NCBI GenBank assembly: GCA_050486185.1
Contig: JBJHCT010000001.1
Location: 178,866-242,865, forward strand
Reading direction: 5' to 3'
From: Candidatus Saccharimonadota bacterium
GTDB taxonomy: Bacteria > Patescibacteriota > Saccharimonadia > QS-5-54-17
Length of the DNA: 64,000 nt
The position numbers and the translations under genes were made by a program. Positions 5,288 to 59,295 of this stretch are shown here, in pieces; within the stretch, counting starts at the first letter, position 1, and each line of letters starts with the position of its first letter. Under the pieces are notes generated by a model. The model searched no databases and was not told the origin of the DNA. It saw only the letters and a program-made list of their open reading frames with translations.

Positions 5288-6343
5288 ATGCAGGCAACTA
5301 TCGACATTTCTACCAAGGCAATCGTTAGAAGACTACTATTTGTAGTAGCTTTATTGGCTATAGCTACACTAGCTTACAACCTCCAGGGCGTTATTAGGAT
5401 GTTTATCATCGCCTTTTTCATAGCTTTAGTGATGCATGGACCAACCACTAAGCTGCAACAGTACGTTATAGCTCAAAACCGTAAACTAGCTGCCATAGTG
5501 GCCTTTATGTCGATTGGCTTTGTAGTCTCTGTCGTTATAGCCCTAGTAATACCAGTGATATCAAATCAAGCTAGAGAACTAGCCTTGCAAGCTCCGGGAT
5601 ATTTCCATGATCTGTCTAGTGGGGATGGATTTATATCTACTTGGATGCAGAATCTAGATATAGTTGGTAGTTTCCAGGACTTTCTAGCGAGTATTGCTAG
5701 TGGTTTAACTCTATCAGTTGATTTAATTATCGACGTTGCAGCTAGGGTTTTAGATAACATCATAACCTTCCTATTTACTATAGTTTTAGCCTTTCTGATG
5801 GTAGTTGAAGGGCCAAATTGGGCTAAACAGTCGAAGAAGTTCATACCAAAGTCCGCATCCCCTGCTTTAACTGAGTTGATGCCAAAGATGTACAAGGCAG
5901 TTACTGGTTTTGTGGCAGGACAGATTATTGTCACCTCTATAGCGGCTACAGCTACATTGATACTGTTATTTATATTCGGTGTTCCCGCTCCATTGTCTCT
6001 AGCGGCTGTCATATGGGTGACGGGCCTAATCCCACTCATCGGTAATACTCTAGGCGCAGTTATAGTTGTCGCAGTAGCGCTATCACAATCAGTCTTTGTA
6101 GCTATCTTCCTAGGAGTCTACTACATCATCTATCAGCAAATTGAAAACAATGTTTTTGAGCCGATTGTGCAGTCTAGAACAGTCAGTCTAACTCCACTAT
6201 ATGTCATTATCTCAGCCGTTATAGGTGTTTTTGCCGCCGGCTTTATAGGAGCGTTGATCGCTATACCGGTTGGAGCTTGTGTGAAGATTGTAGCTGAACA
6301 CTTCCTAAATGAGAGTTTAGACCCGGATAAATCTAGTACTTAA
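5288..6343 (+). CDS. AI-2E family (PerM-like) transporter, tandem paralog
   Basis: Multi-TM 351-aa protein with YYIIYQQIENNVFEP. Paralogous to the upstream gene. Confidence 0.8.
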   Translation: MQATIDISTKAIVRRLLFVVALLAIATLAYNLQGVIRMFIIAFFIALVMHGPTTKLQQYVIAQNRKLAAIVAFMSIGFVVSVVIALVIPVISNQARELALQAPGYFHDLSSGDGFISTWMQNLDIVGSFQDFLASIASGLTLSVDLIIDVAARVLDNIITFLFTIVLAFLMVVEGPNWAKQSKKFIPKSASPALTELMPKMYKAVTGFVAGQIIVTSIAATATLILLFIFGVPAPLSLAAVIWVTGLIPLIGNTLGAVIVVAVALSQSVFVAIFLGVYYIIYQQIENNVFEPIVQSRTVSLTPLYVIISAVIGVFAAGFIGALIAIPVGACVKIVAEHFLNESLDPDKSST

Positions 6344-7148
6344 TACAGTAAAGTAAAGCGATGTTACGAGGGCGAGCTTCTGTCCCACCGCTATCTGCAG
6401 TATTGCCGGATATGCTATGAGTATGAGACCCATTACTGGTTGTAGACATAGTGCCATTACGGAAATACATTGTTGCATCATCATGTATCCCACCCTGACT
6501 AAAGCGAGGATTACTGCCGTCTTTTACTCTAAGTCCAGCCGTTTCACCAACAGTAGGTACAGTTATAGTTGGGCTAGATCCATTGTTTGCAATCATACGG
6601 ACTTGATTTAGGTAGTTCTGGGTATGTGTATGTGCTCCATCTGAGGCTGCTGTCAGTGATCCTGAATCATGTTGATGCTCTTTATTTTGATCTGCCTGAG
6701 CTGAACCTAAGTCTCTTCCGGTATCTACCCCTCTACCATCATCCCAAGCCCTAAGAAATTCACCCCTTAAGTCAGGTAGGTTAAAAGTAGTCGACCCATC
6801 ACCTACGCCATATTCAGTACCTATAATTGCAAATAAGTCTGCATACTGAGTGCGAGATACTGCCTGACCGTTACATTTCAGCCAGCCGTCAGGTTCTGCG
6901 TTCATAATAAAGCTCATAATAGCTCCTGGAGGAACCGAGGGTGCGCTGCTGCCAGTCACCCAAGTTGAGGTAGCCTCCTCATAGACCAACGTATCTCCAT
7001 CACTAGGACTATTAGCTGCAAGATTACTAATTTGCTCTAAGTTAATATTTCTCAAGCTACCATCTTGATTGTGGGCCACTTCAAGGAACTCATTTAGTAT
7101 GTCTCCCCAGGTACCAATATCTTCGCCTGGTATAGGCAGACGCGCCAT
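6333..7148 (-). CDS. phage tail collar domain protein (tail-fibre-like)
   Basis: TFNLPDLRGEFLRAW collar motif, C-terminal TEARPRNIALLYCIKY, N-terminal PIPGEDIGTWGDILNEFL as in many fibre proteins. Confidence 0.75.
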   Translation of the reverse strand: MARLPIPGEDIGTWGDILNEFLEVAHNQDGSLRNINLEQISNLAANSPSDGDTLVYEEATSTWVTGSSAPSVPPGAIMSFIMNAEPDGWLKCNGQAVSRTQYADLFAIIGTEYGVGDGSTTFNLPDLRGEFLRAWDDGRGVDTGRDLGSAQADQNKEHQHDSGSLTAASDGAHTHTQNYLNQVRMIANNGSSPTITVPTVGETAGLRVKDGSNPRFSQGGIHDDATMYFRNGTMSTTSNGSHTHSISGNTADSGGTEARPRNIALLYCIKY

Positions 7149-15827: not shown

Positions 15828-16424
15828 TCATCGTGTCACCACTCTCCATCCAAAAACTCGCGTATTACCAGATGGATTATACAGTTCCAGTTTCATGCTC
15901 GATGCAGCCTTAGCTGCAAACAAAGCACTTAGGCCAAATGAGTCACCATTGGCGGCTGTACCATCAGACACTCGACCCAGCGATGAAGTAGTTCGATTTA
16001 TTGCCACTGTGTCATCAATCGTTAGGCGTACGCCTACACCAAAGCCCTGGATCGATCCACCAATCAGCTCAACTGGCACGGCAATATCAAAGATTGTGTG
16101 ATATGAGCTTGCTGATACTGACTGAGAAGTACCTTCGTGAAAGGTTAGCTCTCCTGCGTCTGCGGCTGTGATTGGTAGTACTACAGACTCCCCAATCTGC
16201 CCCTCAACCCATTGCTTATTAGCAACATCAGTGTCATTGACTGGATCTGCTACTTGCAATCTACCCCATTCATCATAGGCTGCTAGCCTACTACCTCCTG
16301 CTGTTGTTCCATCATGTACTCTAAGAGTTTTATTAGTAGTATCTACTGTAACTTCTCTAGCTGCTCCAGTGAAGCTATCGTTATCTGTATTACTACCACC
16401 TCTTAGTTGTACTTGGTCGGGCAT
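15828..16424 (-). CDS. tail-fibre-like protein, Mtd-N-like conserved N-terminal module + unique C-terminal domain (paralog P1)
   Basis: MPDQVQLRGGSNTDNDSFTGAAREVTVDTTNKTLRVHDGTTAGG...DPVNDTDVANKQWVEG is shared with four other ORFs in the window. Confidence 0.8.
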   Translation of the reverse strand: MPDQVQLRGGSNTDNDSFTGAAREVTVDTTNKTLRVHDGTTAGGSRLAAYDEWGRLQVADPVNDTDVANKQWVEGQIGESVVLPITAADAGELTFHEGTSQSVSASSYHTIFDIAVPVELIGGSIQGFGVGVRLTIDDTVAINRTTSSLGRVSDGTAANGDSFGLSALFAAKAASSMKLELYNPSGNTRVFGWRVVTR

Positions 16425-25598: not shown

Positions 25599-26459
25599 CT
25601 ACGGCTCGATTGGATAGCGGATGTAGGCGACCCCGCGTCCACCGCGACCCGAAAAGGGACCTGTGTTACCAGCCGCACCGCCGCCACCTGCGCCTGTACC
25701 ATGCGTTCCGGCACCGCCTGTGGGAGACGCATCGCTACCTCCTGCGCCGCCGCCGCCAGCACCACCGGCACCGCCAGCATCACGACCGCCCCCGCCGCCG
25801 CCACCGCCGCGAATGACGCTCGACCCGGTGAAGTCGGATGACTCCCCGGCCCCACCGGCACCACCTGTCGTCCACGTCGGGCCGTTCGCCCCCGCCGCCG
25901 AGGTTCCACCGCCACCGCCGCCCGAGTCGTCAGCCGAGCCGTCGCCACCGTCGTTCCCTTGACCTGATGATCCACTGCCCCCGGTTGAACGAGATGCTCC
26001 ACCGCCTCCTGAACCTCCTGAGCCACCAACCTGCTGCCCCGAACCAAAAGTACCCCCACCACCGCCGCCACCAGTTGCAGTCACACCCGCAAACGTCGTG
26101 TTCGAGCCTGCATTACCTCGCCCACCGCCGGTTACACCGGCACCTTCTGCACCGACCACCACGGGGTAGACGGAAGCCGCGACCGGGACACTGCCCGTGC
26201 GCCGACCACCGGCACCGCCACCGCCACCGCCACGGATACCCGAAGATCCGCCACCAGCGCCGCCTCCAGCGACCAGGTAATACTCGACTTCTTCGTCCGT
26301 ACCCGGATCTAGAACCGTAAAGTTGGCTGACCCCGCCGCCGCGAACGTATGAAGCCTATACTGCCGACCGTCGATGGTGATGGTCGACTCGGTGCCGCCA
26401 GTTGCCGAGACAGAAACCCACACATCAGACGCAATGATCCCGCGACGAAGCAGCCGCAT
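25599..26459 (-). CDS. glycine-rich tail-protein-like protein (high GC)
   Basis: FTVLDPGTDEEVEYYLVAGGGAGGGSSG...GGGGGAGG and long G-rich tracts, as in phage minor-tail or glycine-rich-domain proteins. The ATG at 26459 overlaps the P2 stop (TGATG). The ORF track's alternative start is 26492. Confidence 0.65.
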   Translation of the reverse strand: MRLLRRGIIASDVWVSVSATGGTESTITIDGRQYRLHTFAAAGSANFTVLDPGTDEEVEYYLVAGGGAGGGSSGIRGGGGGGAGGRRTGSVPVAASVYPVVVGAEGAGVTGGGRGNAGSNTTFAGVTATGGGGGGGTFGSGQQVGGSGGSGGGGASRSTGGSGSSGQGNDGGDGSADDSGGGGGGTSAAGANGPTWTTGGAGGAGESSDFTGSSVIRGGGGGGGGRDAGGAGGAGGGGAGGSDASPTGGAGTHGTGAGGGGAAGNTGPFSGRGGRGVAYIRYPIEP

Positions 26460-27007
26460 CAGGTGACCGCCTGTGCGCCGGTCATAACCCACTCGTTCGT
26501 AGCGTGCTTCGTGAGCACCGCCGTGCCGTACCGGTCGAGCGTCCCCGCTAGACGAACCGTAACCCCAGAGCCACCCACGACGGTCACGCCACCTGCACCG
26601 GCCGCATAGACCTCGATCACACTGCCCACCACAAACGCGACCGACGAGTTAGGCGGGACAGTGACAGTCACCGCGGCGGTATTGGTGAACCGCTTGACCG
26701 TCCCCGCGTCGGCCAGGGCGAGTGTGTAGGTCGTGCCCGATTCGTCAGAGAGCGCGACAGACGCGACAGAGTCGCCAATCTGTCCATCTACGTAGCCCTT
26801 GTTGGCGATATCAGCATCATCGACAGGATCGGCTACTTGGGCGCGACCCCACTCGTCATAGACTAGGAGCTTATGCCCACCAGCTGTTGTTCCATCATGT
26901 ACTCTAAGAGTCTTATTAGTAGTATCTACTGTAACTTCTCTATTAACGCCAGTAAAAGCATCGTTCTCTGCTTCGGTTCCACCTCTTAGTTGTACTTGGT
27001 CTGGCAT
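26459..27007 (-). CDS. tail-fibre-like protein, Mtd-N-like N-terminal module (low GC) + high-GC C-terminal domain (paralog P2)
   Basis: MPDQVQLRGGTEAENDAFTGVNREVTVDTTNKTLRVHDGTTAGG. Base composition switches inside the ORF near 26860-26890. Confidence 0.8.
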   Translation of the reverse strand: MPDQVQLRGGTEAENDAFTGVNREVTVDTTNKTLRVHDGTTAGGHKLLVYDEWGRAQVADPVDDADIANKGYVDGQIGDSVASVALSDESGTTYTLALADAGTVKRFTNTAAVTVTVPPNSSVAFVVGSVIEVYAAGAGGVTVVGGSGVTVRLAGTLDRYGTAVLTKHATNEWVMTGAQAVT

Positions 27008-32121: not shown

Positions 32122-32197
32122 TGGCAGGGGTACCAGGATTCGAACCCGGACTACGACTTTTGGAGAGTCGTGTGCTAGCCGTTGACACTATACCCCT
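32122..32197 (-). tRNA. tRNA-Trp (anticodon CCA)
   Basis: Hand-folded: acceptor AGGGGTA/TACCCCT, anticodon arm CGACT-CTCCAAA-AGTCG, T-arm CCGGG-TTCGAAT-CCTGG, encoded CCA. Confidence 0.85.
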
Positions 32198-32903
32198 TCA
32201 ACTCACTAAATTCAGTATAAATCATTTCTAGTAACTTTCCGAGTCTCCTATCTAGGTATCTTATACTAATGCACCCTGGATAGTTGATACGCTTCGTTTT
32301 ACCGGCATGCTTCTTTAAGTAAGGTTTATGGAACTGATTTATTGGTATTTTTGTTACTTGTGACCAATATTCTGTCTGTGTAAGCGCATCATGATAGCTA
32401 TGTAAATGTATTAATGCTCTAAACTTAGATTCATCTAAATCGAAACACTCCCTTAAATAGCCCATGAATATTCTTACCATATTTGGATCAGAGTTAGCGA
32501 ACTGTATTCCTGCCGATATATCCTTACCCCCTTCACACCAAAATAGCATTGAGCATACTAGTTTTTTGTGAGATATATCTAGATTTATGTTTTTAGCAAT
32601 ATTTCTGGCAGATAAAGTAATTTCTTGATCTCTAGCAAGCTTTCTTTCCTTATTTATAGTTGCTAATTTATTGATATTATCTCTTTGTGTATTCCGGATT
32701 TTATGATTAGAAAAGTCTATACCATTTGAACTAAGCTTTATATCTTTAGTCCATGCATAGGCTGTAGACTTGGCAATATCAAGTTCCTGTGCGATTTCTG
32801 AATAGAAAAAACCTTGTTTTCTTAGCGTTACTGCTTCTTTTTTTATTTTCGAACTATAGCTCACTAATAACATAACCTCTTTATATAAGAAATTATACAG
32901 CAC
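32175..32903 (-). CDS. HTH + LAGLIDADG-like (homing-endonuclease-like) protein; 3' end overlaps tRNA-Trp
   Basis: N-terminal HTH (YSEIAQELDIAKSTAYAWTKD). LFWCEGGKD and NSDPNMVRIFMGYL resemble degenerate LAGLIDADG-type domains. The last 23 nt lie inside the tRNA. Confidence 0.4.
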   Translation of the reverse strand: MLYNFLYKEVMLLVSYSSKIKKEAVTLRKQGFFYSEIAQELDIAKSTAYAWTKDIKLSSNGIDFSNHKIRNTQRDNINKLATINKERKLARDQEITLSARNIAKNINLDISHKKLVCSMLFWCEGGKDISAGIQFANSDPNMVRIFMGYLRECFDLDESKFRALIHLHSYHDALTQTEYWSQVTKIPINQFHKPYLKKHAGKTKRINYPGCISIRYLDRRLGKLLEMIYTEFSELKGYSVNG

Positions 32904-33269: not shown

Positions 33270-33932
33270 TTAGGTCGTGATTCCTAAATCAACTACCATC
33301 TGCCAGACTGGGCGTACAGGATCCCCTACAGTGAAGGTTCCAACAGCAGGATTCCCGCGTGTCTTGAGCGTCATAGGTGAACCTGTCCCTACAAAAAGAT
33401 GTTCACAATAGGCAGAAACATTGCCCGATGCATTTGCGGCGTTATAGATTGCGACTTGCTGTTGGCCGTTCGATCCGTTAGTGATAGTCATATTGCCGCG
33501 ACCAGCAGTTGATCCGGTTAGGACTACCGCGAAAGCCCGATAGGCATATAGGCGGCCAGTCTCGGTATTAAACGTGAACTCAGAGCCAACTAAATCGACA
33601 GAGGCTCCTTCTGAAACAATCTGTTGTGTAGTACGAATATTAAACGCAAATCCTCCTGTACCCCCAGATGTTGCAGATACTACACCGTCGGGCTTGGGAG
33701 TAATAACCCCATCCACATAGCTCTTGTTAGCTACATCAGTGTCATTAACTGGATCTGCTGTTTGCAGCCTACCCCATTGATCATAAGCTGCTAGTTTACT
33801 TCCACCTGCTGTTACTCCATCATGTACTCTAAGAGTCTTATTAGTAGTATCTACTGTAACTTCACGTTGTGCTCCTGTGAAGTTATCATTATCTGTGCTG
33901 CTTCCACCTCTTAGTTGTACTTGGTCGGGCAT
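33270..33932 (-). CDS. tail-fibre-like protein, Mtd-N-like N-terminal module + unique C-terminal domain (paralog P3)
   Basis: The family start MPDQVQLRGGSSTDNDNFTGAQREVTVDTTNKTLRVHDGVTAGG lies at 33932. The 23-aa upstream extension in the ORF track is AT-rich and absent from the other paralogs. Confidence 0.8.
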   Translation of the reverse strand: MPDQVQLRGGSSTDNDNFTGAQREVTVDTTNKTLRVHDGVTAGGSKLAAYDQWGRLQTADPVNDTDVANKSYVDGVITPKPDGVVSATSGGTGGFAFNIRTTQQIVSEGASVDLVGSEFTFNTETGRLYAYRAFAVVLTGSTAGRGNMTITNGSNGQQQVAIYNAANASGNVSAYCEHLFVGTGSPMTLKTRGNPAVGTFTVGDPVRPVWQMVVDLGITT

Positions 33933-34068
33933 AGTGTGTTTACTACCTTTTATAGAATTATATATCATAAGCATAATACTAAATTTATTACTGTTAGACA
34001 ATCTAAAATAAAATCTATCAAACTACTTCTATGGAGTTTGATAGTAAGTTGGTTATAATATTGTCTGT

Positions 34069-34217: not shown

Positions 34218-34628
34218 ATGTCCCTATGTAAGAATTGCAGTACAGGATTAAACAGATTATCTAGTGTTTATTGTTCTAATAAATGCCAGAAAAATTACGA
34301 ATATGCTACGTACATTAAAAAGTGGAAACAAGGTAAAGTTACTGGTAGCAGAGGGGTTGATGCTAAGAATATTTCTAGGCATATTGTTAGATACCTAATC
34401 AGCAAGTATGAAGGTAGATGTGTAGAATGCGGCTGGAACAAGCTTCATCCAGTTACAGGTAACGTTTTACTAGAAGTAGATCATATAGATGGTGACTCGG
34501 ACAATAATCAGGAAGAGAATTTGCAGTTATTGTGTCCAAATTGCCATTCACTTACTAGTACATACAAAAATCTTAATAATGGTATGGGCAGAGAATGGAG
34601 AAGGTCTAAGTATATAAAATCTTCTTAG
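34218..34628 (+). CDS. HNH endonuclease
   Basis: N-terminal Cys-rich region and VDHIDGDSDNNQEENLQLLCPNCHS (H-N-H motif). Confidence 0.8.
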   Translation: MSLCKNCSTGLNRLSSVYCSNKCQKNYEYATYIKKWKQGKVTGSRGVDAKNISRHIVRYLISKYEGRCVECGWNKLHPVTGNVLLEVDHIDGDSDNNQEENLQLLCPNCHSLTSTYKNLNNGMGREWRRSKYIKSS

Positions 34629-34906: not shown

Positions 34907-35587
34907 ATGCCCGACCAAGTACAACTAAGAGGTGGTACAGAAGCAGAGAATAATAACTTCACAGGAGCAGCCAGAGAAGTTACAGTAGATACTACTAATA
35001 AGACTCTTAGAGTACATGATGGAGAAACAGCAGGAGGAAGTAAACTAGCAGCTTATGATCAATGGGGTAGGCTGCAAACAGCAGATCCAGTTAATGACAC
35101 TGATGTAGCTAATAAGCAGTGGGTTGAAGGGCATGTTAGTGGTGCTGCTACTCGTCGCGCACTTGTGATTCGCGATGATGTTCAAACAATCCCTAATGCC
35201 ACCACTACAGCAATGATATTCCAGACAGAGGTTTATGACGACGATGGCATGTTTGATATCGGATCACCAACCATGCTTGTTGTGCCATCCGGTGCGTCGA
35301 AAGTACGTGTGTCCGCTAGCGTGGTATGGGGAAGTAATGCAGACGGTCTGCGACAAGCGTTTATTGAACGCGACACTGGTGCAGGATTTACTGCGAGCTA
35401 TAACGGAGTAGCCCGGTTCGCAATGGACCCCGGGACTTCCAATCAGGCTTACTGGACAATGGCGACTGCCTGGATTGCATGTGATCCAGGTGATAAGTTT
35501 CAATTAGCTGTGCATCATACACGAGGAACCACTCTGCAAATGCAAGGCAGTGGTCTAACATGGATGATGATGGAGATATTAACATAA
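34907..35587 (+). CDS. tail-fibre-like protein, Mtd-N-like N-terminal module + unique C-terminal domain (paralog P4)
   Basis: MPDQVQLRGGTEAENNNFTGAAREVTVDTTNKTLRVHDGETAGG. The C-terminal part has a C1q/TNF-like beta-sandwich-type pattern (weak impression). Confidence 0.8.
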   Translation: MPDQVQLRGGTEAENNNFTGAAREVTVDTTNKTLRVHDGETAGGSKLAAYDQWGRLQTADPVNDTDVANKQWVEGHVSGAATRRALVIRDDVQTIPNATTTAMIFQTEVYDDDGMFDIGSPTMLVVPSGASKVRVSASVVWGSNADGLRQAFIERDTGAGFTASYNGVARFAMDPGTSNQAYWTMATAWIACDPGDKFQLAVHHTRGTTLQMQGSGLTWMMMEILT

Positions 35588-42206: not shown

Positions 42207-42866
42207 CTACATCTTCTCTGCAACAACAGTAATTACCCGATTCCTAAAAGTACTAGTGGCCGAAGATGTCGCATACTTTGCGGTAAACGTAGTAGTACCG
42301 GGGTTCAGCCCGCTAAGCAAAAACGTTCTGGAAGCCGTACCATGTCCTGACCCGGCCCAGGAATTCCCTATAGCACTACGGCTTTGCGCTGTCAGCCCTC
42401 CCCAAGTATCCCCAGCGGCGTATGTATTTGTTCCAGTCGCTGCAAGGTTCATTGACGTCACAACACCAGCACCCGAACCCCACATAAAGGCACTCAGCGA
42501 TACCAGGACTTTACCAGATGCTGGTACGTCGATTTCAATAGAAGGACCAACAGTGGCTAAATCAGTAAAAGATGTGCTAGTGGTTGACTCTTGTGCTGCT
42601 GTTTCTGAACCCTCGAAGCTTATTCCAGACTCTTCAACCACCCCATCTACATAACTCTTGTTAGCTACATCAGTATTATTGACTGGATCTTCTACTTGCA
42701 GCCTACCCCATTCATCATAAGCTGCTAGTCTACTTCCTCCTGCTGTTTCTCCATCATGTACTCTAAGAGTCTTATTAGTAGTATCTACTGTAACTTCACG
42801 GCTTACTCCAGTGAAGCTATCGTTATCGTTTGCTGTACCACCTCTTAGTTGGACTTGGTCGGGCAT
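42207..42866 (-). CDS. tail-fibre-like protein, Mtd-N-like N-terminal module + unique C-terminal domain (paralog P5)
   Basis: MPDQVQLRGGTANDNDSFTGVSREVTVDTTNKTLRVHDGETAGG. Located between secY and infA. Confidence 0.8.
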   Translation of the reverse strand: MPDQVQLRGGTANDNDSFTGVSREVTVDTTNKTLRVHDGETAGGSRLAAYDEWGRLQVEDPVNNTDVANKSYVDGVVEESGISFEGSETAAQESTTSTSFTDLATVGPSIEIDVPASGKVLVSLSAFMWGSGAGVVTSMNLAATGTNTYAAGDTWGGLTAQSRSAIGNSWAGSGHGTASRTFLLSGLNPGTTTFTAKYATSSATSTFRNRVITVVAEKM

Positions 42867-52444: not shown

Positions 52445-52559
52445 CTTAGTTATTCCTTATCTAAACATAAAAATACTGCTACGAATTATACCTTTACTTT
52501 CAGGTATCTTCTAGCAGTCTCCGCCTAAAATATAGCGAATCTGTGTTTATATCCTAGGA

Positions 52560-52589
52560 ATTGTAACAGTATATTTCCCCAGGTGTCAA
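52560..52589 (-). promoter_or_regulatory. putative sigma70-type promoter for rplC and the downstream ribosomal operon
   Basis: Minus strand reads TTGACA (52589-52584) - 18 nt - TACAAT (52565-52560). This leaves a 5' UTR of about 115 nt before rplC. Confidence 0.4.
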
Positions 52590-52606
52590 CTGTAGTAGCG
52601 AAAAAT

Positions 52607-53656
52607 CTATTTCCACTTACCTATAGCTGCATAACCTATTATAGTTTCTGTGCCAGAAGCCCTCTGATTGACATCTATACCCCTGATCGAAATGCTAGTG
52701 GTGGATATAGCGCTGACGGTGCCCCATGAAGCACTAGTACCCCACTTAAAGACAGTGGTTAGAGGTGTTGGGGTTTCAGAAAATTGCTGGGGGAAGGTGT
52801 ACGCCCTAACACCTTGGTAGAGACTACCGTAGGCGTTGTCAATGCTTTGATCGGTCACGGTTTCGACCTTGTGAATAATCATAGTTCCATCAGACCATTT
52901 CACCCAATTACCATTACTATCAGAACCGGACTCTACAACGGGAGCACCATTAGATACTAGGCCCCCTGCAACTACAGTACCGCTAAACTCTACTTCGCTA
53001 GTGCTGTGATCAACCGCTATAACATCTTCATCTTTTTGATAGTTCCATAACCTAATATCACTACTGGGCTGATCAAGATACCATAGCCATTTGCTCTCTG
53101 ATGAATCAGCTAGAGCAAAGCCGTGATAACTTGATGATCTGACCCGAATGTGCCCGCCCAAAACATCGAATATAGTGTTGGAGCTATTTGTACCTGGATT
53201 AACATTATTAACCCCTATCCTGCCCCCAGAATCTATATACAATCTGGCTTGAGAGTCTACGCCATCCCATATATATAAATCTCTAGTATTGTTACCGTTG
53301 TAGTCGGTGCCTATATTAAACCGGCCGGCACCTTGTTGTCTGAATTTAATTTCGCTATCCATACGAGTAGCAGAGTCTTTATCTATAGTGATGCCGCCCC
53401 AGTTATCGTTATGACGAACATGCAGCTTTGTTCCCGGAGTATCTGCGCCTATACCTACCCTACCATCTAATCTATAGATATCGTTCCCGCTAACTACCCA
53501 TGAAGACAGAGAAGAAGGCGTTATCCAGGCAGTATCATAATCATTAATAGAATCCTTGGCTAAAACATCACCACTAGCACCGCCAGCCGGAATGCCTTTC
53601 CCACCACCACCTCCTAGCGGCACCAACTCGCCATTTTGTTTTATCCAACGTGTCAT
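52607..53656 (-). CDS. tail-fibre-like protein T3 (gp53-like C-terminal receptor-binding-type domain)
   Basis: GRVGIGADTPGTKLHV fibre motif. C-terminal GSDSNGNWVKWSDGTMIIH...YTFPQQFSETP pattern, as I recall for fibre tip domains. Confidence 0.7.
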   Translation of the reverse strand: MTRWIKQNGELVPLGGGGGKGIPAGGASGDVLAKDSINDYDTAWITPSSLSSWVVSGNDIYRLDGRVGIGADTPGTKLHVRHNDNWGGITIDKDSATRMDSEIKFRQQGAGRFNIGTDYNGNNTRDLYIWDGVDSQARLYIDSGGRIGVNNVNPGTNSSNTIFDVLGGHIRVRSSSYHGFALADSSESKWLWYLDQPSSDIRLWNYQKDEDVIAVDHSTSEVEFSGTVVAGGLVSNGAPVVESGSDSNGNWVKWSDGTMIIHKVETVTDQSIDNAYGSLYQGVRAYTFPQQFSETPTPLTTVFKWGTSASWGTVSAISTTSISIRGIDVNQRASGTETIIGYAAIGKWK

Positions 53657-53746
53657 TTTGTTGATTATTATACTCTCTTAGTAATACCTATAGATTAGCA
53701 CAAGCATATATCAGTCTCAAAAAAACACACAAACATTTAGCTAATG

Positions 53747-54526
53747 CTAAGTAGGCACTGCATCTACTCTATAATAGAGCCCCGTCTTCTCACTGTCACT
53801 ATCATTTAGGGTACCGGCCTGTCCTGTTAAGTTAAAATTAAAACTGTGAGTGCCGGAATTGAGAACTACCATGCCAATCCCAGCGGTTGTGCGCACGTGA
53901 CTATCACCTGTATTAACAGGCATAGCTACTCTTCTTATACTATTTCCATTAACTAGGGCATCGATATAAAACCAGCTAGTGGTTGTAGCACCACTGGGCC
54001 TTGCTGAAACGTTGAAATCCACGCTCAAAACCGCATTAAAGGGTAGCTCTATTTCTATATCTGTACTAAAAAAGTTAGTACCCCTATCCCAAGTACCTTT
54101 TGCAGCCTGGTCTTGAGCTAGAGTTAGAGCAACGTTATTGGCTCTAATCCATCCATCAACATCTAGCCTAACTTGCGGGTTTTCCACTCCTATACCTACT
54201 GAGCCGCCGCCGCTAGGCATAATCTTGATATCTTCACCCGCACCAGAAACAATGTTGTGACCGTTAACGTCTAAGTCACCTCCCAGTTGTGGCGAGTCAT
54301 CCTCCACTAATTTAGATATAGTACTCATACTATTAACTGTCCCTGCAACTTCATCTATTGCAGACTTAACATCTGTAGCGAGTAATCCTGATTCAGTATT
54401 GTCGTATGAAAGACTACTTATATCAATGCTAGCTTCAGATAAATCTATGGTGCCATCTGGATGCAAGACTATATTAGAATCCATAGCATCGGGATGCTGT
54501 ATTTTTGTAGTCTTAACGGTACTCAT
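53747..54526 (-). CDS. tail-fibre-like protein T2
   Basis: DVKSAIDEV, DDSPQLGGDLDVNGHNI and GSVGIGVENPQVRLDVDG motifs, all typical of phage fibre proteins. Confidence 0.7.
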   Translation of the reverse strand: MSTVKTTKIQHPDAMDSNIVLHPDGTIDLSEASIDISSLSYDNTESGLLATDVKSAIDEVAGTVNSMSTISKLVEDDSPQLGGDLDVNGHNIVSGAGEDIKIMPSGGGSVGIGVENPQVRLDVDGWIRANNVALTLAQDQAAKGTWDRGTNFFSTDIEIELPFNAVLSVDFNVSARPSGATTTSWFYIDALVNGNSIRRVAMPVNTGDSHVRTTAGIGMVVLNSGTHSFNFNLTGQAGTLNDSDSEKTGLYYRVDAVPT

Positions 54527-54532
54527 ACTTAA

Positions 54533-55408
54533 TTAACCTTCTAGCCAAAAGCCCCTAGTATAAATATTCTCCACCCAGGGTTGCCAACCACCCGAGTAAG
54601 CCCATATATAGAACCTACCCTCGGAATCCGTCTCTACATCATACTCTATACCCCATCTATCCACACCCACCCCCTGTATAGCAGGGGCATGGGAGGTCCA
54701 AGCATTCCCCGTAGTTGGATCGCCAAATGGTTTAGTCATCCAAAGCATTCCCGAAGCGCCAAGTCTTCTGGTAACTATATATAATTTTACCGCACCTATA
54801 CGACCAATTACTCCCTGTGGCAAGTGCTGACTCATATCTATTAGCTGTGGGCTGGTCGATAGTGGATTTTGTGTAAATATACTACTGGAAGCTAAAGGTG
54901 ATGATTTATCTAATCTATAGTATGCTCCTAGAGCTTTATAGTTAGAGAACTGTTCGTATCTAATGTTGTCGCCAACCCTCACCTCTCCATCAACATGCAG
55001 ACTGGCTTGTGGGTCATCTGTACCTACACCCACCCTGTTATCTGTAGTATTTACGCTAATAGTAGGGGTTTGGCCATCTGAAACCTTGAAAGCTTCAGTG
55101 TTGTTAGTGGCAACATCAACAGGGCCACTAAAGCTAGCCCCATCTAACGGGGCCTTTTTACTATCTAACTCATCGATTGCTTCCTTAACATTGTTTGCAC
55201 TAACAGTAGAGTTGGTATTGTCATAAGTGATACTGCTATTAGTGTCGATATTAACATCAGAGATATTGACCTTGCCGTCTTGATTGAAGGTAATATTGGC
55301 ATCTACAGCTTCAGGGTGTTTAATTGATGTAGTTTTAATTTCCCCAGTTTCTACAGTATTGGTATCCACTACATCACTAATTATTCTATTGGCCTTTATA
55401 TCAGACAA
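54533..55408 (-). CDS. tail-fibre-like protein T1
   Basis: The N-terminal module is paralogous to T2 (TTSIKHPEAVDANITFNQDG...YDNTNS...NVKEAIDEL). NRVGVGTDDPQASLHVDG motif. Confidence 0.7.
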   Translation of the reverse strand: MSDIKANRIISDVVDTNTVETGEIKTTSIKHPEAVDANITFNQDGKVNISDVNIDTNSSITYDNTNSTVSANNVKEAIDELDSKKAPLDGASFSGPVDVATNNTEAFKVSDGQTPTISVNTTDNRVGVGTDDPQASLHVDGEVRVGDNIRYEQFSNYKALGAYYRLDKSSPLASSSIFTQNPLSTSPQLIDMSQHLPQGVIGRIGAVKLYIVTRRLGASGMLWMTKPFGDPTTGNAWTSHAPAIQGVGVDRWGIEYDVETDSEGRFYIWAYSGGWQPWVENIYTRGFWLEG

Positions 55409-55511
55409 AATAACACCTCTTTATACTTAATTTTAATTAGGAGTTAAAACTACTAATACATATATACTACGCAAGCTACAAACAAGGTGTCAAATCAGTC
55501 ACGCTTAGGTA

Positions 55512-57281
55512 TTATCCCACTCTACCTAGTAATATGGCTACTTCGCTATCTACTGGCCACGGATTAAATTTACAACCCTGCAAGTCTATAGACTGTTGCA
55601 ACATCACTGGAGCCGGTGCTCCTGGAGTAGGGCAGTTTAGATGACCAAAGCCAAGTAGGTGACCGGCTTCATGATTGACCACCATATGACGGTAATCTCG
55701 CAAATTCCCACCGGCCTCATTCCAAGAAGGTGTAGCATTTCTCCACCTAACATCATTAATAATGACATCTCTACCGACTCGGCAACTATACTCTGCTGAG
55801 CAGAGAGTAGAGAAACTAGTCAGCTGATCAGCTGCTGCCAGCCAGATAGTGAAATCACTCACACCACTATCTACTCTGCGGAATCCTACGTCACTTCTAG
55901 ACCATCCTCGGCTATCACCTAGAGTTTGGGCAACCAATACTGCAAACTCATTAATATCAGCTACTGTATCCCCTCTAGTAGCGATATTGTAGGTCAATAC
56001 TAAGCTAGGACTTTTAATGCAATACTCTATAGAGCCCTCACCTAGTTCTACCTCGTCTGATTTAGCTGATATAGCTAATATGTAGCATTGATCTTCCAAA
56101 AAACTACCATCTACTACCCCTGATAGATTTACACTTAGTCTATCCTCGCTATTGAGGCTATCTAGTTGATTTGTATCTAAGGACATTCTTTCATCTATAC
56201 TTAGTGGCTGTTGATCACTATCGACAACAAGCTCTAAAGATTTAATAGTTGGCCCGCTTTTATGCAGCATAATATCAATACTTAACTCATCTCCAGATGA
56301 AACCTCTACAGAGCTGGTTGAGATCTCTAAATCTAGAGAAGACTCCTGGGGGTAGGCAAAAACTAACAAAGTTTCTGAGCCGACATATGGAGCATATACA
56401 GAAGCAGCCGAGAGACGTAAATCAAAACTATGACCTCTAATGACGTCTAAGATATTGGTGGTAGCAAAATCACTGTGCCACTCAGTAGAGCAATTTATGC
56501 TTCTTGGACAGTTATCACTAACAAATTGATACCCTGCACCCTTACTGGGTAGACCCTCATCAGTTTGAGTAGTAATATCACCACACTCTAGGTAGTTGAT
56601 ACACCACAGCTGATGAGACTCATCTTCATTGATAATATCTACACTACCTCCATCATCGACCCAAACAGCCGCCTTGTCGGCAAAATCACCATAAACCGGT
56701 GTCTCAAGATCTAAATTAGTATTCGCTATATCGATACTAAAGGGGTTTAATCTACTTAAGAGTGATGGCTTTTTAATAAACTTGGGAGACTTAGAGCTAG
56801 TAATGTCTTGGTTTAGATTTGGTACTCCTAATCTTACGTATTCTGCCCTAGCGCCGCTGTAGCGATATTGATCTGACAGTAAGTCTATAGTTTCATCAAT
56901 ATCACTACTACAAGCATGCTCACCACCGGTAGCTATATAAGTTGGCTCTTCTTCGATAGTCAGAGGCTTGTTAATATCATCTGCTTTGCCGTAAAGACTG
57001 AAGCTTCTAACTTGGTAATGCATTCCCTCTTGATTCCAGATCTCTGAGTCACTCTCATCATTACTACCATCGCTACTTTCTTCACCACCATCCCAGGAAG
57101 CGACTACATCACCATAGGAGACCTGGCACTGAGAATAATTAACATCAGCTATTACTGGATAACTAAACCACCAATAACCCCAAGAGGCTGTAGCTACTGC
57201 CAAGATACTCACAAGAGATATCAGTAGAGTCTTTGGTGAAGTTACTAGTTGCTTCATCCAAGCTCGGATTAATTTCATCAA
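55512..57281 (-). CDS. membrane-anchored metzincin-motif protein (DUF3152-like C-terminal domain)
   Basis: N-terminal TM helix. C-terminal CRVGRDVIINDVRWRN...YRHMVVNHEAGHLLGFGH (HExxHxxGxxH)...APAPVMLQQS, as I recall for actinobacterial DUF3152. Confidence 0.65.
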   Translation of the reverse strand: MMKLIRAWMKQLVTSPKTLLISLVSILAVATASWGYWWFSYPVIADVNYSQCQVSYGDVVASWDGGEESSDGSNDESDSEIWNQEGMHYQVRSFSLYGKADDINKPLTIEEEPTYIATGGEHACSSDIDETIDLLSDQYRYSGARAEYVRLGVPNLNQDITSSKSPKFIKKPSLLSRLNPFSIDIANTNLDLETPVYGDFADKAAVWVDDGGSVDIINEDESHQLWCINYLECGDITTQTDEGLPSKGAGYQFVSDNCPRSINCSTEWHSDFATTNILDVIRGHSFDLRLSAASVYAPYVGSETLLVFAYPQESSLDLEISTSSVEVSSGDELSIDIMLHKSGPTIKSLELVVDSDQQPLSIDERMSLDTNQLDSLNSEDRLSVNLSGVVDGSFLEDQCYILAISAKSDEVELGEGSIEYCIKSPSLVLTYNIATRGDTVADINEFAVLVAQTLGDSRGWSRSDVGFRRVDSGVSDFTIWLAAADQLTSFSTLCSAEYSCRVGRDVIINDVRWRNATPSWNEAGGNLRDYRHMVVNHEAGHLLGFGHLNCPTPGAPAPVMLQQSIDLQGCKFNPWPVDSEVAILLGRVG

Positions 57282-57288
57282 TTAACTC

Positions 57289-57555
57289 CTAAATATTGGT
57301 AGCGTCTAACACTATACCTATTGGTGCTACTAGACTCAAAATAGCAGCTATCAGTAAAATTGCGTACTCTATCTTGCGGTCTATCTGGAAATGATCGTGT
57401 GAGGCGAAAATAAGTCCTAGTATTAGACCTACGGGTACGGGTAGGTTTATAAACCCTACCTTTAGCCAGATAGCTCCCACCAAGAAATACATCAAGATTT
57501 TAAGAAAATACAGACTATCAGGCTCTTGTTTGTTTGTTTGTTTACTCTTAACCAT
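57289..57555 (-). CDS. small membrane protein (3 predicted TM helices)
   Basis: 88-aa hydrophobic ORF ending 7 nt before the metzincin-like gene. Confidence 0.45.
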   Translation of the reverse strand: MVKSKQTNKQEPDSLYFLKILMYFLVGAIWLKVGFINLPVPVGLILGLIFASHDHFQIDRKIEYAILLIAAILSLVAPIGIVLDATNI

Positions 57556-59166: not shown

Positions 59167-59275
59167 ATTTAATACTCCTTATTGGATTTTAATTGATATA
59201 GTAATATTTTTGCTAAATATTTGCATGCGAAATACGCACACGATTTATCATCAGTTTAGAATTATACTTTAGCCC

Positions 59276-59295
59276 CAGGGGTTTGTAAACCCCTG
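59276..59295. repeat. 18-nt palindromic motif aggggtttgtaaacccct (copy 2, extended to 20 nt by c/g)
   Basis: Identical to 41981-41998. It abuts the fusA stop codon (59296-59298). Confidence 0.7.

What the first reader, a model, noticed from the sequence alone, without database searches (positions are those of the whole stretch)
52607..55408. Second modular family: three tandem fibre-like genes with a shared N-module and shared VGIG...L.VDG motif
T1 and T2 share an N-terminal module:
- T1: TTSIKHPEAVDANITFNQDGKVNISDVNIDTNSSITYDNTNS...NVKEAIDEL.
- T2: TTKIQHPDAMDSNIVLHPDGTIDLSEASIDISSLSYDNTES...DVKSAIDEV.

All three carry an (R/S)VG(V/I)G...P...L(H/D)V motif. Their C-terminal halves are unrelated.

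T2 has DDSPQLGGDLDVNGHNI. T3 ends with a GS.SNGNWVKWSDGTMI...FPQQF pattern. Both are features I associate with phage fibre shafts and tips.

This repeats the P-family theme of a constant N-terminus and variable tip in an independent sequence family.
Basis: partly seen in the sequence, partly recalled or inferred. Interest (0 to 1): 0.55.

Follow-up and report, generated by a model that had tools for sequence, protein, structure and literature searches.

The report
Phage-type fibre genes inside ribosomal operon
Three adjacent genes for short, modular, phage-style receptor-binding fibres sit as a strain-specific insert between ribosomal-protein operons of a tiny Saccharimonadales (CPR/TM7) bacterium; the genes are ordinary phage-type parts, but their place and number in this genome are unusual.

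Summary
T1 (54533-55408), T2 (53747-54526) and T3 (52607-53656) are real, co-oriented minus-strand genes.

- **Shared parts.** T1 and T2 share a ~145-aa N-module (34% identity, E=8e-16). All three carry one VGIGxxxPxxxL(H/D)V motif (3 seen, ~4e-6 expected). This is the capping-loop motif of trimeric beta-helical fibres.
- **Setting.** This is not a prophage. The host is a Candidatus Saccharimonadales chromosome. The ~2.9-kb cassette lies between rpsJ-88aa-DUF3152 and the rplC promoter/leader. Three related genomes lack it at that junction. Composition is host-like.
- **Absent features.** No signal peptide, S74 chaperone, integrase or flanking repeats.
- **Wider pattern.** The same 64 kb holds at least seven more phage-fibre-like genes scattered among housekeeping operons.

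Best reading: a horizontally acquired cassette of mosaic, trimeric, glycan-binding fibres. Whether the cell itself uses them (host recognition, as in Bdellovibrio) or a phage-like particle does is unresolved.

The parts
52613..55511 (-). The accessory cassette as a whole (T1-T2-T3 plus its upstream intergenic region). It is present here and absent at the same junction in three related genomes.
   Evidence: blastn homology to relatives L001 and L017 stops at window 55548-55552 and resumes at 52612. In L001-L004 and L017 the DUF3152 gene is followed after ~200 bp by rplC.
55409..55511 (-). Intergenic region upstream of T1, with a sigma-70-like promoter match (TTGACA-18-TAGTAT, 55493->55464) and a Shine-Dalgarno sequence AAAGAGGTG before the TTG start.
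   Evidence: These are consensus matches only; no expression data.
54533..55408 (-). T1, 291 aa: specific N-terminus, then the SYDNT..AIDEL segment, a shaft with the capping-loop motif, and a beta-sandwich tip.
54914..55339 (-). T1 N-module (aa 24-165) shared with T2.
   Evidence: BLASTP E=8e-16, 34% identity; tblastn; DNA-level repeat families D1, D3, D5 and D9 at ~819-834 nt spacing.
54992..55033 (-). T1 capping-loop motif VGVGTDDPQASLHV.
54536..54946 (-). T1 C-terminal tip domain (aa ~155-291), a beta-sandwich.
53747..54526 (-). T2, 259 aa. Its start lies 6 nt after the T1 stop codon. It has the same N-module as T1, the DDSPQLGGDLDVNGHNI segment, the capping-loop motif and an orphan C-terminal domain.
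54083..54517 (-). T2 N-module (aa 4-148) shared with T1.
54251..54301 (-). T2 DDSPQLGGDLDVNGHNI segment, inside the region (aa 51-116) that matches phage families.
   Evidence: phrog_31104 at 3.3e-6 and phrog_677 'baseplate wedge tail fiber protein connector' at 0.0018. Pelagibacter phage HTVC115P structural protein, 40% identity over aa 41-117.
54158..54199 (-). T2 capping-loop motif VGIGVENPQVRLDV.
53750..54157 (-). T2 C-terminal domain (aa ~124-259), with no detectable relative.
   Evidence: The homologue search returned only T2 itself. No Pfam, PHROG or PDB hit covers it. It is unrelated to the T1 tip family. No structure model was made.
52607..53656 (-). T3, 349 aa: Gly-rich N-terminus, a shaft with the capping-loop motif, and a pyocin-type foot domain.
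53525..53584 (-). T3 N-terminal segment GGASGDVLAKDSINDYDTAW, preceded by a Gly-rich stretch.
   Evidence: Regex hit. Residues 16-49 match positions 271-304 of the NCBIfam Lcl collagen-like adhesin model (E=1.7e-5, far below the family cut-off).
53417..53458 (-). T3 capping-loop motif VGIGADTPGTKLHV.
52610..52954 (-). T3 C-terminal tip (aa ~235-349): the lectin-like foot domain of R/F-pyocin and AP22 gp53-type fibres.
52445..52612 (-). Conserved rplC promoter (TTGACA-18-TACAAT, 52589->52560) and a structured 116-nt leader. This is the downstream boundary of the insert and is not part of the cassette.
   Evidence: Conserved with the relatives. Promoter scan. Fold -30.6 kcal/mol, z=-3.78. No Rfam match.
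55512..57281 (-). Upstream neighbour: membrane-anchored DUF3152 protein with an HExxH motif (589 aa), conserved at this position in the relatives.
   Evidence: PF11350 at 3.9e-23; synteny; hydrophobic N-terminus.

Best explanation
The interval is a ~2.9-kb accessory cassette of three phage-type receptor-binding fibre genes in the chromosome of a Candidatus Saccharimonadales (Patescibacteria/TM7) bacterium. It sits at the boundary between the rpsJ-88aa-DUF3152 unit and the promoter and leader of the rplC ribosomal operon.

**Architecture (shown).** Each protein is a mosaic of exchangeable modules:
- an N-terminal attachment module, which is the same in T1 and T2 and different in T3;
- a short shaft segment carrying one VGIGxxxPxxxL(H/D)V capping-loop motif of trimeric beta-helical fibres;
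- a C-terminal beta-sandwich tip that differs in each protein. T1 has a Bd2133-tip/CBM-like sandwich, T2 an orphan domain, and T3 an R/F-pyocin-type lectin foot.

**Mechanism (inferred).**
- Each protein forms a homotrimer, and its tip binds a surface carbohydrate.
- T1 and T2 share the N-module, so they dock to the same partner and offer it two alternative specificities. They arose by tandem duplication followed by tip replacement.
- None has a signal peptide or membrane anchor, so they are built in the cytoplasm in the phage manner and need some partner structure.

**Origin (inferred).** The cassette came from the phage gene pool. Its host-like composition suggests a phage of this lineage or an old acquisition. 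It landed at an operon boundary that has its own downstream promoter, so ribosomal gene regulation is not disturbed.

**Open.** I cannot say who uses the fibres. The two options are listed as rival refinements below.
For: **Genes and modules**
- ORFs, starts and tight spacing.
- T1/T2 N-module.
- Motif far beyond chance.
- The same motif is repeated up to 44 times in giant fibre-like proteins.
- It is the only region of the T1/T2 profile that hits the PDB, and all of those hits are Bdellovibrio MAT fibres. The MAT paper describes the capping-loop consensus (PMC10769870).

**Tips**
- T3. Its relatives sit in phage tail modules. In L005/L006 the relative lies two genes downstream of a Prophage_tail gene, and an integrase is on the same contig. 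In L012 it follows baseplate genes.
- T1. Tandem tip paralogues occur in L008 and L010.

**Cellular host and insertion**
- EF-Tu and S10 cluster with Saccharimonadales MAG proteins, and the contig is 264,553 bp.
- The flanks are rpoC, S7, EF-G, EF-Tu and S10 on one side and L3, L4, L23 and L2 onward on the other.
- Three related genomes (the L001-L004 set and L017) lack the cassette, with homology breakpoints at 55548-55552 and 52612.

**Other features**
- No hydrophobic N-terminus: maximum Kyte-Doolittle score 0.11-0.87, against 2.3 for the DUF3152 anchor.
- Host-like GC content and codon usage.
Against: - Trimerisation and glycan binding are inferred from homologues, not tested. Only monomer models were made, and the N-terminal and shaft parts of both models are of low confidence (pLDDT <50).
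- The T2 tip has no homologue and no model.
- The direction of the event is not proven. Insertion here and loss in the relatives are both possible, because the three relatives may be each other's closest kin, and they are only 75-78% identical to the window in L3.
- No integrase, att site or target duplication marks how the cassette arrived.
Confidence: 0.8

Rival explanations
1. Refinement A: domesticated host-recognition fibres. The bacterium itself expresses T1-T3, together with the five Mtd_N-headed paralogues, the Collar protein and the Gly-rich protein in the same window. They form a repertoire of interchangeable adhesive fibres for finding and holding the cells it lives on, in the way Bdellovibrio uses its mosaic adhesive trimer (MAT) fibres. 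The shared N-modules anchor different tips to one cell-surface structure. The position next to ribosomal operons gives steady expression.
For: - At least ten intact phage-fibre-like genes lie at six separate places among housekeeping genes within 64 kb of a reduced genome. Two of these places are inside the ribosomal super-operon: rpsJ|rplC and secY|rpsM.
- Two independent families repeat the constant-N-terminus, variable-tip design. That design is the logic of the 21 Bdellovibrio MATs (PMC10769870).
- The T1 tip is structurally closest to a MAT tip.
- The tip of P-family paralogue 42207-42866 resembles minor tail proteins of Mycobacterium phages (85 of 103 matching records; phrog_7565 at 1.9e-25). 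Actinobacteria are the hosts of cultivated Saccharibacteria (PMC10633639).
- T1-T3 have host-like codon usage.
- No phage structural gene lies nearby.
Against: - None of these proteins has a signal peptide or anchor, whereas all MATs do. No export route is evident.
- They are much shorter (259-349 aa) than MAT fibres. The full-length Bd2133 construct runs to residue 1,031.
- They are not conserved in the three related genomes at this junction. All are singleton clusters at 90% identity.
- Cultured-phage relatives of the T3 tip infect Pseudomonas and Vibrio, not Actinobacteria.
- Published work on Saccharibacteria adhesion names type IV pili, a T4SS and VCBS/dockerin/FN3 proteins, not fibres of this kind.
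Confidence: 0.35
2. Refinement B: phage parts without a cellular role. T1-T3 are receptor-binding proteins that serve, or once served, a phage, tailocin or gene-transfer-agent-like particle encoded elsewhere in the genome. Alternatively they are leftover phage DNA, for example taken up by natural competence, that persists at permissive intergenic sites.
For: - No signal peptide, which means cytoplasmic assembly as for virion proteins.
- Their sizes and module types are those of phage RBPs. Relatives of the tips lie in phage tail modules.
- The cassette is strain-specific.
- Another fibre locus in the window (25.6-27.0 kb) has foreign composition, GC 0.58-0.67, which shows ongoing import.
- HNH endonuclease genes flank the RBP gene in phage locus L005, and one lies beside a P-family gene in the window.
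- Saccharibacteria are naturally competent (PMC10633639).
Against: - There is no capsid, terminase, tail tube, baseplate, integrase or lysis gene within at least 10 kb on either side.
- All three ORFs are intact, tightly packed and host-like in codon usage.
- Phage RBP genes are normally clustered in one structural module, not spread over six loci.
- A reduced genome would be expected to lose useless DNA.
Confidence: 0.4
3. Assembly chimera: a fragment of a phage contig was wrongly joined into the ribosomal region of this metagenome-assembled genome.
For: - The genome is a MAG, and the cassette is unique to it.
- I could not retrieve the contig or read support.
Against: - Both breakpoints fall in intergenic DNA at gene boundaries. 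The right one lies directly after the T3 stop codon and before the conserved rplC promoter.
- GC content and codon usage match the host.
- No repeat is present that could mislead an assembler.
- T1, T2, T3 and the neighbouring L3, L2, EF-G and 88-aa proteins are each recorded from both the NCBI record and an independent Logan assembly.
Confidence: 0.04
4. Chance: the shared motifs are low-complexity coincidences and the ORFs are not a related set.
For: T3 shares only a 14-17 residue motif with T1 and T2.
Against: - The motif has an expectation of 4e-6 against 3 observed.
- The T1/T2 alignment has E=8e-16.
- The motif region finds hundreds of fibre-like proteins at E down to 1e-52.
Confidence: 0.01

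Closest known systems
Bdellovibrio bacteriovorus mosaic adhesive trimer (MAT) fibres, non-S74 subgroup (Bd2133, Bd1334; PDB 8OND, 8OK3, 8OML; Caulton et al. 2024, PMC10769870)
   Same: - They are cell-encoded relatives of phage fibres in a bacterium that lives on other bacteria.
- A constant N-terminal part is combined with swapped, unrelated C-terminal tips.
- The same VG.G..P...L capping-loop motif is present.
- The T1 tip is structurally closest to the Bd2133 tip.
- Many paralogues are present in one genome.
   Different: - MATs have signal peptides and a conserved ~130-aa N-terminal domain, and they are long fibres. The full-length Bd2133 construct runs to residue 1,031.
- T1-T3 are 259-349 aa with no signal peptide.
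- The T1/T2 N-module shows no similarity to the solved MAT fragments outside the motif.
- The organism is a monoderm-type CPR bacterium, not a Gram-negative predator.
- Surface location of T1-T3 is untested.
R-type and F-type pyocin fibres and phage AP22 gp53-type tail fibres (PDB 6CXB, 6CL6, 6CU2, 4MTM, 25VE)
   Same: The T3 C-terminal ~115 aa is the same lectin-like foot domain, by both fold and sequence profile. It is 42-47% identical to tail-fibre ends of Pseudomonas and Vibrio phages.
   Different: - T3 is much shorter than the R2-pyocin fibre PA0620 (691 residues) and has a different N-terminus and shaft.
- It is not encoded in a tail or baseplate cluster.
- No small ORF that could be a chaperone gene follows it.
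Phage fibres with a C-terminal S74 intramolecular chaperone (T5 pb1 L-shaped fibre, K1F endosialidase)
   Same: Trimeric beta-helix shaft with the same capping-loop motif.
   Different: T1-T3 have no Peptidase_S74 domain (Pfam scan). They end in binding domains instead.
Tandem receptor-binding-protein gene arrays in tailed phages (e.g. metagenomic loci L010 and L012)
   Same: Several short fibre or tip genes lie head to tail with small gaps or overlaps. They share N-termini and have different tips. L008 and L010 carry tandem pairs of T1-tip paralogues.
   Different: Here the array is flanked by ribosomal-protein genes of a cellular chromosome, with no other virion gene nearby.
Mtd_N-headed (PF18454) small tail-protein-like paralogues of the same window
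   Same: The same design (constant N-terminus, variable phage-like tip), the same lack of a signal peptide, and the same scattering among housekeeping genes.
   Different: No sequence similarity to T1-T3. The P-family genes are single genes rather than a tandem array.

Membership tests
Phage tail fibre / receptor-binding protein with a pyocin-type foot (T3) | C-terminal lectin-like foot domain homologous to R/F-pyocin and AP22 gp53 fibre tips | tested here: met
Phage tail fibre / receptor-binding protein (T1-T3) | Encoded within a virion tail or baseplate gene module of a phage, prophage or tailocin | tested here: not met
   The flanks are rpsJ, an 88-aa membrane protein and DUF3152 on one side and rplC onward on the other. 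No capsid, terminase, tail or integrase gene lies within 10 kb. The rest of the 264-kb contig was not available.
Phage tail fibre / receptor-binding protein (T1-T3) | Homotrimeric fibre that attaches by its N-terminus to a baseplate or tail | not testable with these tools
   Only monomer AlphaFold2 was available, and the N-terminal and shaft parts have pLDDT <50. No partner protein is known.
Phage tail fibre with a separate assembly chaperone (as for the R2 pyocin fibre PA0620 with PA0621; from my own knowledge) | A small chaperone gene immediately downstream of the fibre gene | tested here: not met
   No minus-strand ORF of 30 aa or more lies between T3 and rplC or between the T genes.
Bdellovibrio MAT superfamily | Sec signal peptide at the N-terminus | tested here: not met
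   The maximum 15-residue Kyte-Doolittle score in the first 75 aa is 0.11-0.87 for T1-T3, against 2.33 for the DUF3152 anchor. The MAT requirement is stated. No dedicated signal-peptide predictor was run.
Bdellovibrio MAT superfamily | Conserved ~130-aa beta-rich N-terminal domain following the signal peptide | not tested
   No MAT N-terminal sequence was at hand, because the solved chains cover only C-terminal parts. The T1/T2 N-module profile matches MAT chains only at the capping-loop motif.
Bdellovibrio MAT superfamily | Beta-helical shaft with the capping-loop motif V-G-G/N-pi-x-x-P-x-x-x-L | tested here: met
   One motif in each of T1, T2 and T3. Sequence hits to 8oml, 8ond, 8on4, 8ol4 and 8ojn at that motif. 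The consensus is quoted. The structural role in T1-T3 is inferred.
Bdellovibrio MAT superfamily | Interchangeable, unrelated C-terminal tip domains on a shared N-terminal part | tested here: met
S74-chaperone fibres (T5 pb1, K1F endosialidase type) | C-terminal Peptidase_S74 intramolecular chaperone domain | tested here: not met
   No Pfam hit at E<=1 in T1-T3 except a sub-threshold Phage_tail_S match in T1.
Prophage or integrative mobile element | Integrase or recombinase and flanking direct repeats (att sites) | tested here: not met
   No recombinase ORF lies in or beside the insert. Only short, probably chance repeats are present at the borders.
Anti-phage defence system | Match to a PADLOC model | tested here: not met
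   No PADLOC hit at E<=0.1 for T1-T3, DUF3152 or the 88-aa protein.

The most novel reading that the evidence does not exclude
A Saccharimonadales epibiont has captured receptor-binding modules from phages and keeps them as its own repertoire of interchangeable host-recognition fibres. The repertoire would include T1-T3, five Mtd_N-headed paralogues and the Collar and Gly-rich proteins. The genes are wired into ribosomal-protein operon boundaries for steady expression and are exported by a route that needs no signal peptide. One conceivable route is the conserved holin-like 88-aa membrane protein and the DUF3152 metallopeptidase just upstream. This would be a CPR counterpart of the Bdellovibrio MAT system. 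It would also make phage-tip similarity, for example to mycobacteriophage minor tail proteins, a predictor of which hosts an uncultured CPR bacterium attaches to.
Probability: 0.25. Interest if true: 0.85.

Novelty: new variant of a known kind. Interest (0 to 1): 0.55.

Why it matters
How ultra-small CPR/Patescibacteria epibionts recognise their host cells is largely open. Published work points to type IV pili, a T4SS and a few lectin-like adhesins (PMC10633639, PMC12206443).

If the cell itself uses this dense, dispersed set of phage-type binding fibres with swapped tips, it would be a second, independent case of a bacterium-dependent bacterium re-using phage receptor-binding parts, after the Bdellovibrio MAT fibres. 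It would also give a sequence-based handle on host range for uncultured lineages.

If the genes are only phage leftovers, the finding still has value. It shows that operon boundaries of the ribosomal super-operon in these reduced genomes are permissive landing sites for accessory DNA. In relatives, the fusA|tuf boundary holds a toxin-antitoxin pair instead.

The three proteins themselves are ordinary mosaic phage-type fibres. However, the first ~35 residues of the T1/T2 module (the KTT.I.HP.A.D part) and the T2 tip have no detectable relatives.

Tried and rejected
**Searches that found nothing or little**
- Word-indexed homologue searches with T1 and T2 found nothing beyond the query itself.
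- Exact-protein contig look-ups for window proteins found nothing on record, so the contig beyond the window could not be read.
- The T1-tip family (A3) was scanned against the genome, viral and metagenome collections with no confirmed relative.
- The T1/T2 N-module (A7) found only two matches to the generic SYDNT..AIDEL segment in metagenomes and none in IMG/VR. The first ~35 residues (the KTT.I.HP.A.D part) are therefore so far unique.
- The T3-tip family (A6) gave one Christensenellaceae MAG locus and one viral contig. The patterns used were narrow.
- Three alignments were too divergent for the locus scanner.
- T1 against cultured phages by tblastn: no match.
- PADLOC: no hit. Rfam on the interval: no hit.

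**Ideas tested and dropped**
- The T2 tip as a distant relative of the T1 tip: rejected (hhalign probability 1.3%).
- Flanking direct or inverted repeats as att sites or a target duplication: none convincing. The 9-mer TTGACACCT occurs upstream of both T1 and rplC. I judged it a -35 box plus three chance bases.
- Invertible or shufflon-type tip switching: rejected, because no long inverted repeats are present.
- A DGR: no long direct repeat that could be a template/variable-repeat pair was found in the cassette, and no reverse transcriptase domain appeared among the window ORFs I scanned.
- A collagen triple helix in T3: rejected. The Gly-rich stretch is not a G-X-Y repeat.


Full report
**1. 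What is in the sequence**

Three long ORFs lie on the minus strand at the stated coordinates. T1 is 54533-55408 (291 aa, TTG start), T2 is 53747-54526 (259 aa) and T3 is 52607-53656 (349 aa).

T1 has a strong ribosome-binding site, AAAGAGGTG, before its TTG. The public annotation of the contig uses the same start. T2 starts 6 nt after the T1 stop codon, and T3 follows after 90 nt. No other minus-strand ORF of 30 aa or more lies between them or before rplC. GC content and codon usage are within the range of the neighbouring housekeeping genes.

**2.

- T1 residues 24-165 and T2 residues 4-148 align at 34% identity (E=8e-16). An exhaustive HMMER search of 1.84 billion representative proteins with T1 recovers T2 at E=6.5e-11.
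- The motif [RS]VG[IV]GxxxPxxxL[HD]V occurs exactly three times in the six-frame translation of the 64-kb window, once per protein. Its expectation is about 4e-6.
- T3 shares only this motif with the other two.
- The C-terminal parts are unrelated. A profile comparison of the T2 C-terminus with the T1 tip family gave probability 1.3%.

**3. What the modules are**

*Motif and shaft.* The T1 region around residues 100-155 matches hundreds of proteins, some with 15-44 matched stretches in proteins of 1,300-5,300 aa. The sequences I read are typical GNVGIGTxxPxxKLHV repeat proteins. Against the PDB, the T1/T2 N-module profile hits only Bdellovibrio bacteriovorus fibre structures (8oml, 8ond, 8on4, 8ol4, 8ojn), and always at this motif. 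The paper on those mosaic adhesive trimer (MAT) fibres describes the motif as a capping loop on the edge of a trimeric beta-helix. It notes that phage S74-type fibres share it (PMC10769870).

*T3 tip (residues ~235-349).*
- It hits phrog_2712 'tail fiber protein' at 3.4e-20.
- It has 66 relatives besides itself, nearly all confined to this domain, the best at 50-56% identity, in proteins of 195-606 aa.
- It matches 51 cultured Pseudomonas and Vibrio phage records at 42-47% identity, several annotated as tail fibre.
- The AlphaFold2 model of the tip is confident (pLDDT ~95).
- The family profile matches the F2-pyocin side fibre at E=6.4e-10.
- Relatives of the tip lie in phage tail modules.

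*T2.* Residues 51-116, which include DDSPQLGGDLDVNGHNI, match phrog_31104 (3.3e-6), phrog_677 'baseplate wedge tail fiber protein connector' (0.0018) and a Pelagibacter phage structural protein. The C-terminal ~135 aa has no detectable relative.

*N-termini.* The SYDNT.S....V..AIDEL segment of T1 and T2 is a repeated unit in other fibre-like proteins (P0092, P0138). The first ~35 residues (KTT.I.HP.A.D.NI...) found no relative in the metagenome or viral scans. The T3 N-terminus is different. It has a Gly-rich stretch and a GDVLAKDSINDYDTAW segment that weakly matches the Lcl adhesin model.

*Absent features.* No Peptidase_S74 domain is present. There is no hydrophobic N-terminal segment in any of the three.

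**4. Where it is**

The window is cellular. EF-Tu and S10 fall in 90% clusters with 'Candidatus Saccharimonadales bacterium' MAG proteins, and the contig is 264,553 bp.

The gene order on the minus strand is rpoC, (S12), S7, EF-G, EF-Tu, S10, an 88-aa three-span membrane protein, a membrane-anchored DUF3152 HExxH protein, T1, T2, T3, L3, L4, L23, L2, S19 and onward.

Three related genomes (the L001-L004 set and L017) keep S10, the 88-aa protein, DUF3152, a ~200-bp gap and then L3, with no fibre genes. Nucleotide homology to both lineages stops at window 55548-55552 and resumes at 52612, directly after the T3 stop codon. The relatives are not close: L3 is 75-78% identical. Gain here is therefore more likely than loss there, but it is not proven.

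The 165 bp before rplC are conserved. They hold a near-consensus promoter and a 116-nt leader that folds well (z=-3.78). The ribosomal operon thus keeps its own control elements, and the boundary can tolerate an insert.

No integrase, att-like repeat or target duplication is present. PADLOC and Rfam gave nothing.

**5. The wider pattern in the window**

The same 64 kb holds the following other phage-fibre-like genes.
- Five Mtd_N-headed paralogues with 69-84% identical N-termini and different tips: 15828-16424, 26459-27007, 33270-34001, 34907-35587 and 42207-42866.
- A Phage Tail Collar protein at 6333-7148.
- A Gly_rich_2 protein at 25599-26492.

Most of these hit phage tail or minor-tail PHROGs in their C-terminal parts. 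The four I checked (the two Mtd_N paralogues at 15828-16424 and 26459-27007, the Collar protein and the Gly-rich protein) have no signal peptide. One Mtd_N paralogue sits between secY and rpsM. Its tip resembles minor tail proteins of Mycobacterium phages. At least ten such genes at six loci among housekeeping genes is unusual for a reduced genome.

**6. Interpretation**

*Well supported.* This is a chromosomal cassette of three mosaic, phage-type receptor-binding fibre genes. T1 and T2 are paralogues with a shared attachment and shaft module and replaced tips. T3 is a separate architecture with a pyocin-type foot.

*Inferred from homologues.* The proteins form trimers, and the tips bind carbohydrate.

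*Unresolved.* I cannot say who uses them.
- Refinement A (about 0.35): the cell's own repertoire for recognising other cells, analogous to the Bdellovibrio MATs. The number, dispersion, intactness and modular logic of the genes favour it. The missing signal peptides and the lack of conservation argue against it.
- Refinement B (about 0.40): parts for, or remnants of, a phage-like particle. The phage-like biogenesis features favour it. The absence of any virion gene nearby and the scattering over six loci argue against it.
- An assembly chimera is unlikely (about 0.04).

The full-text searches I ran on phage-fibre-like proteins in Saccharibacteria or CPR turned up no such report.

**7. Verdict**

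The proteins are new, partly orphan members of a known kind. The chromosomal setting and the repertoire-like pattern make it a new variant worth following at the genome level.

Noticed in passing
window 15828-16424(-), 26459-27007(-), 33270-34001(-), 34907-35587(+), 42207-42866(-): Five paralogues begin with MPDQVQLRGG (Pfam Mtd_N). Their first ~80 aa are 69-84% identical and their C-termini differ and resemble phage tails. They are scattered among housekeeping genes and tRNAs, and one lies between secY and rpsM. The two checked (15828-16424 and 26459-27007) have no signal peptide.
   Followed up: partly
window 42207-42866(-), residues 90-216: The tip of this Mtd_N paralogue hits phrog_7565 'minor tail protein' at 1.9e-25. 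It is 36-44% identical to proteins of Mycobacterium phages, many annotated as minor tail proteins (85 of 103 matching phage records). Actinobacteria are the known hosts of cultivated Saccharibacteria, so this could hint at the host or at the donor phage.
   Followed up: partly
window 25599-27007(-): A Gly_rich_2 protein and the adjacent Mtd_N paralogue have GC 0.67 and 0.58, against ~0.42 for the genome, and atypical codon usage. This looks like a recently imported two-gene island.
   Followed up: partly
window 6333-7148(-): A 271-aa Phage Tail Collar domain protein (PF07484 at 1e-26; phrog_523 at 1e-49) stands alone beside a 456-aa ORF that looks like cysteinyl-tRNA synthetase by eye. It has no signal peptide.
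   Followed up: partly
window 52445-52612(-); L001 12481-12643; L017 5648-5815: A conserved promoter and a 116-nt structured leader lie before rplC. The leader has a long hairpin followed by a U-run (dG -30.6 kcal/mol, z=-3.78) and matches no Rfam family. It may be an L4-type attenuator placed before rplC rather than rpsJ in this lineage.
   Followed up: partly
window 55512-57555(-); L001 10378-12444; L017 3545-5611: In this lineage rpsJ and rplC are separated by a conserved pair of genes. One is an 88-aa three-span membrane protein with a weak holin_phiLC3 hit (E=0.0076, below the family cut-off). The other is a membrane-anchored DUF3152 protein with an HExxHxxGxxH motif and 12 cysteines. This is an unusual interruption of the S10 operon.
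   Followed up: partly
L001 and L002 7988-8620, compared with window 59167-59295: Relatives L001 and L002 carry a PhdYeFM antitoxin and PIN toxin pair between fusA and tuf. The window and L017 do not. This is another operon boundary in the str/S10 region that takes up accessory genes.
   Followed up: no
window 34218-34628(+) and 32175-32903(-): An HNH endonuclease (phrog_1271 at 1.5e-17) lies between tRNA genes and the Mtd_N paralogue at 34907. A 242-aa HTH protein with weak transposase and terminase-small-like hits lies next to tRNA-Trp. Both are possible traces of mobile DNA near fibre-like genes.
   Followed up: no
L010 2291-3353 and L008 63-1034: Metagenomic contigs carry tandem pairs of ~176-aa paralogues of the T1 tip. 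In L010 the pair follows two LamG-domain proteins and the genes overlap. This shows that arrays of small genes with alternative tips recur for this domain.
   Followed up: partly
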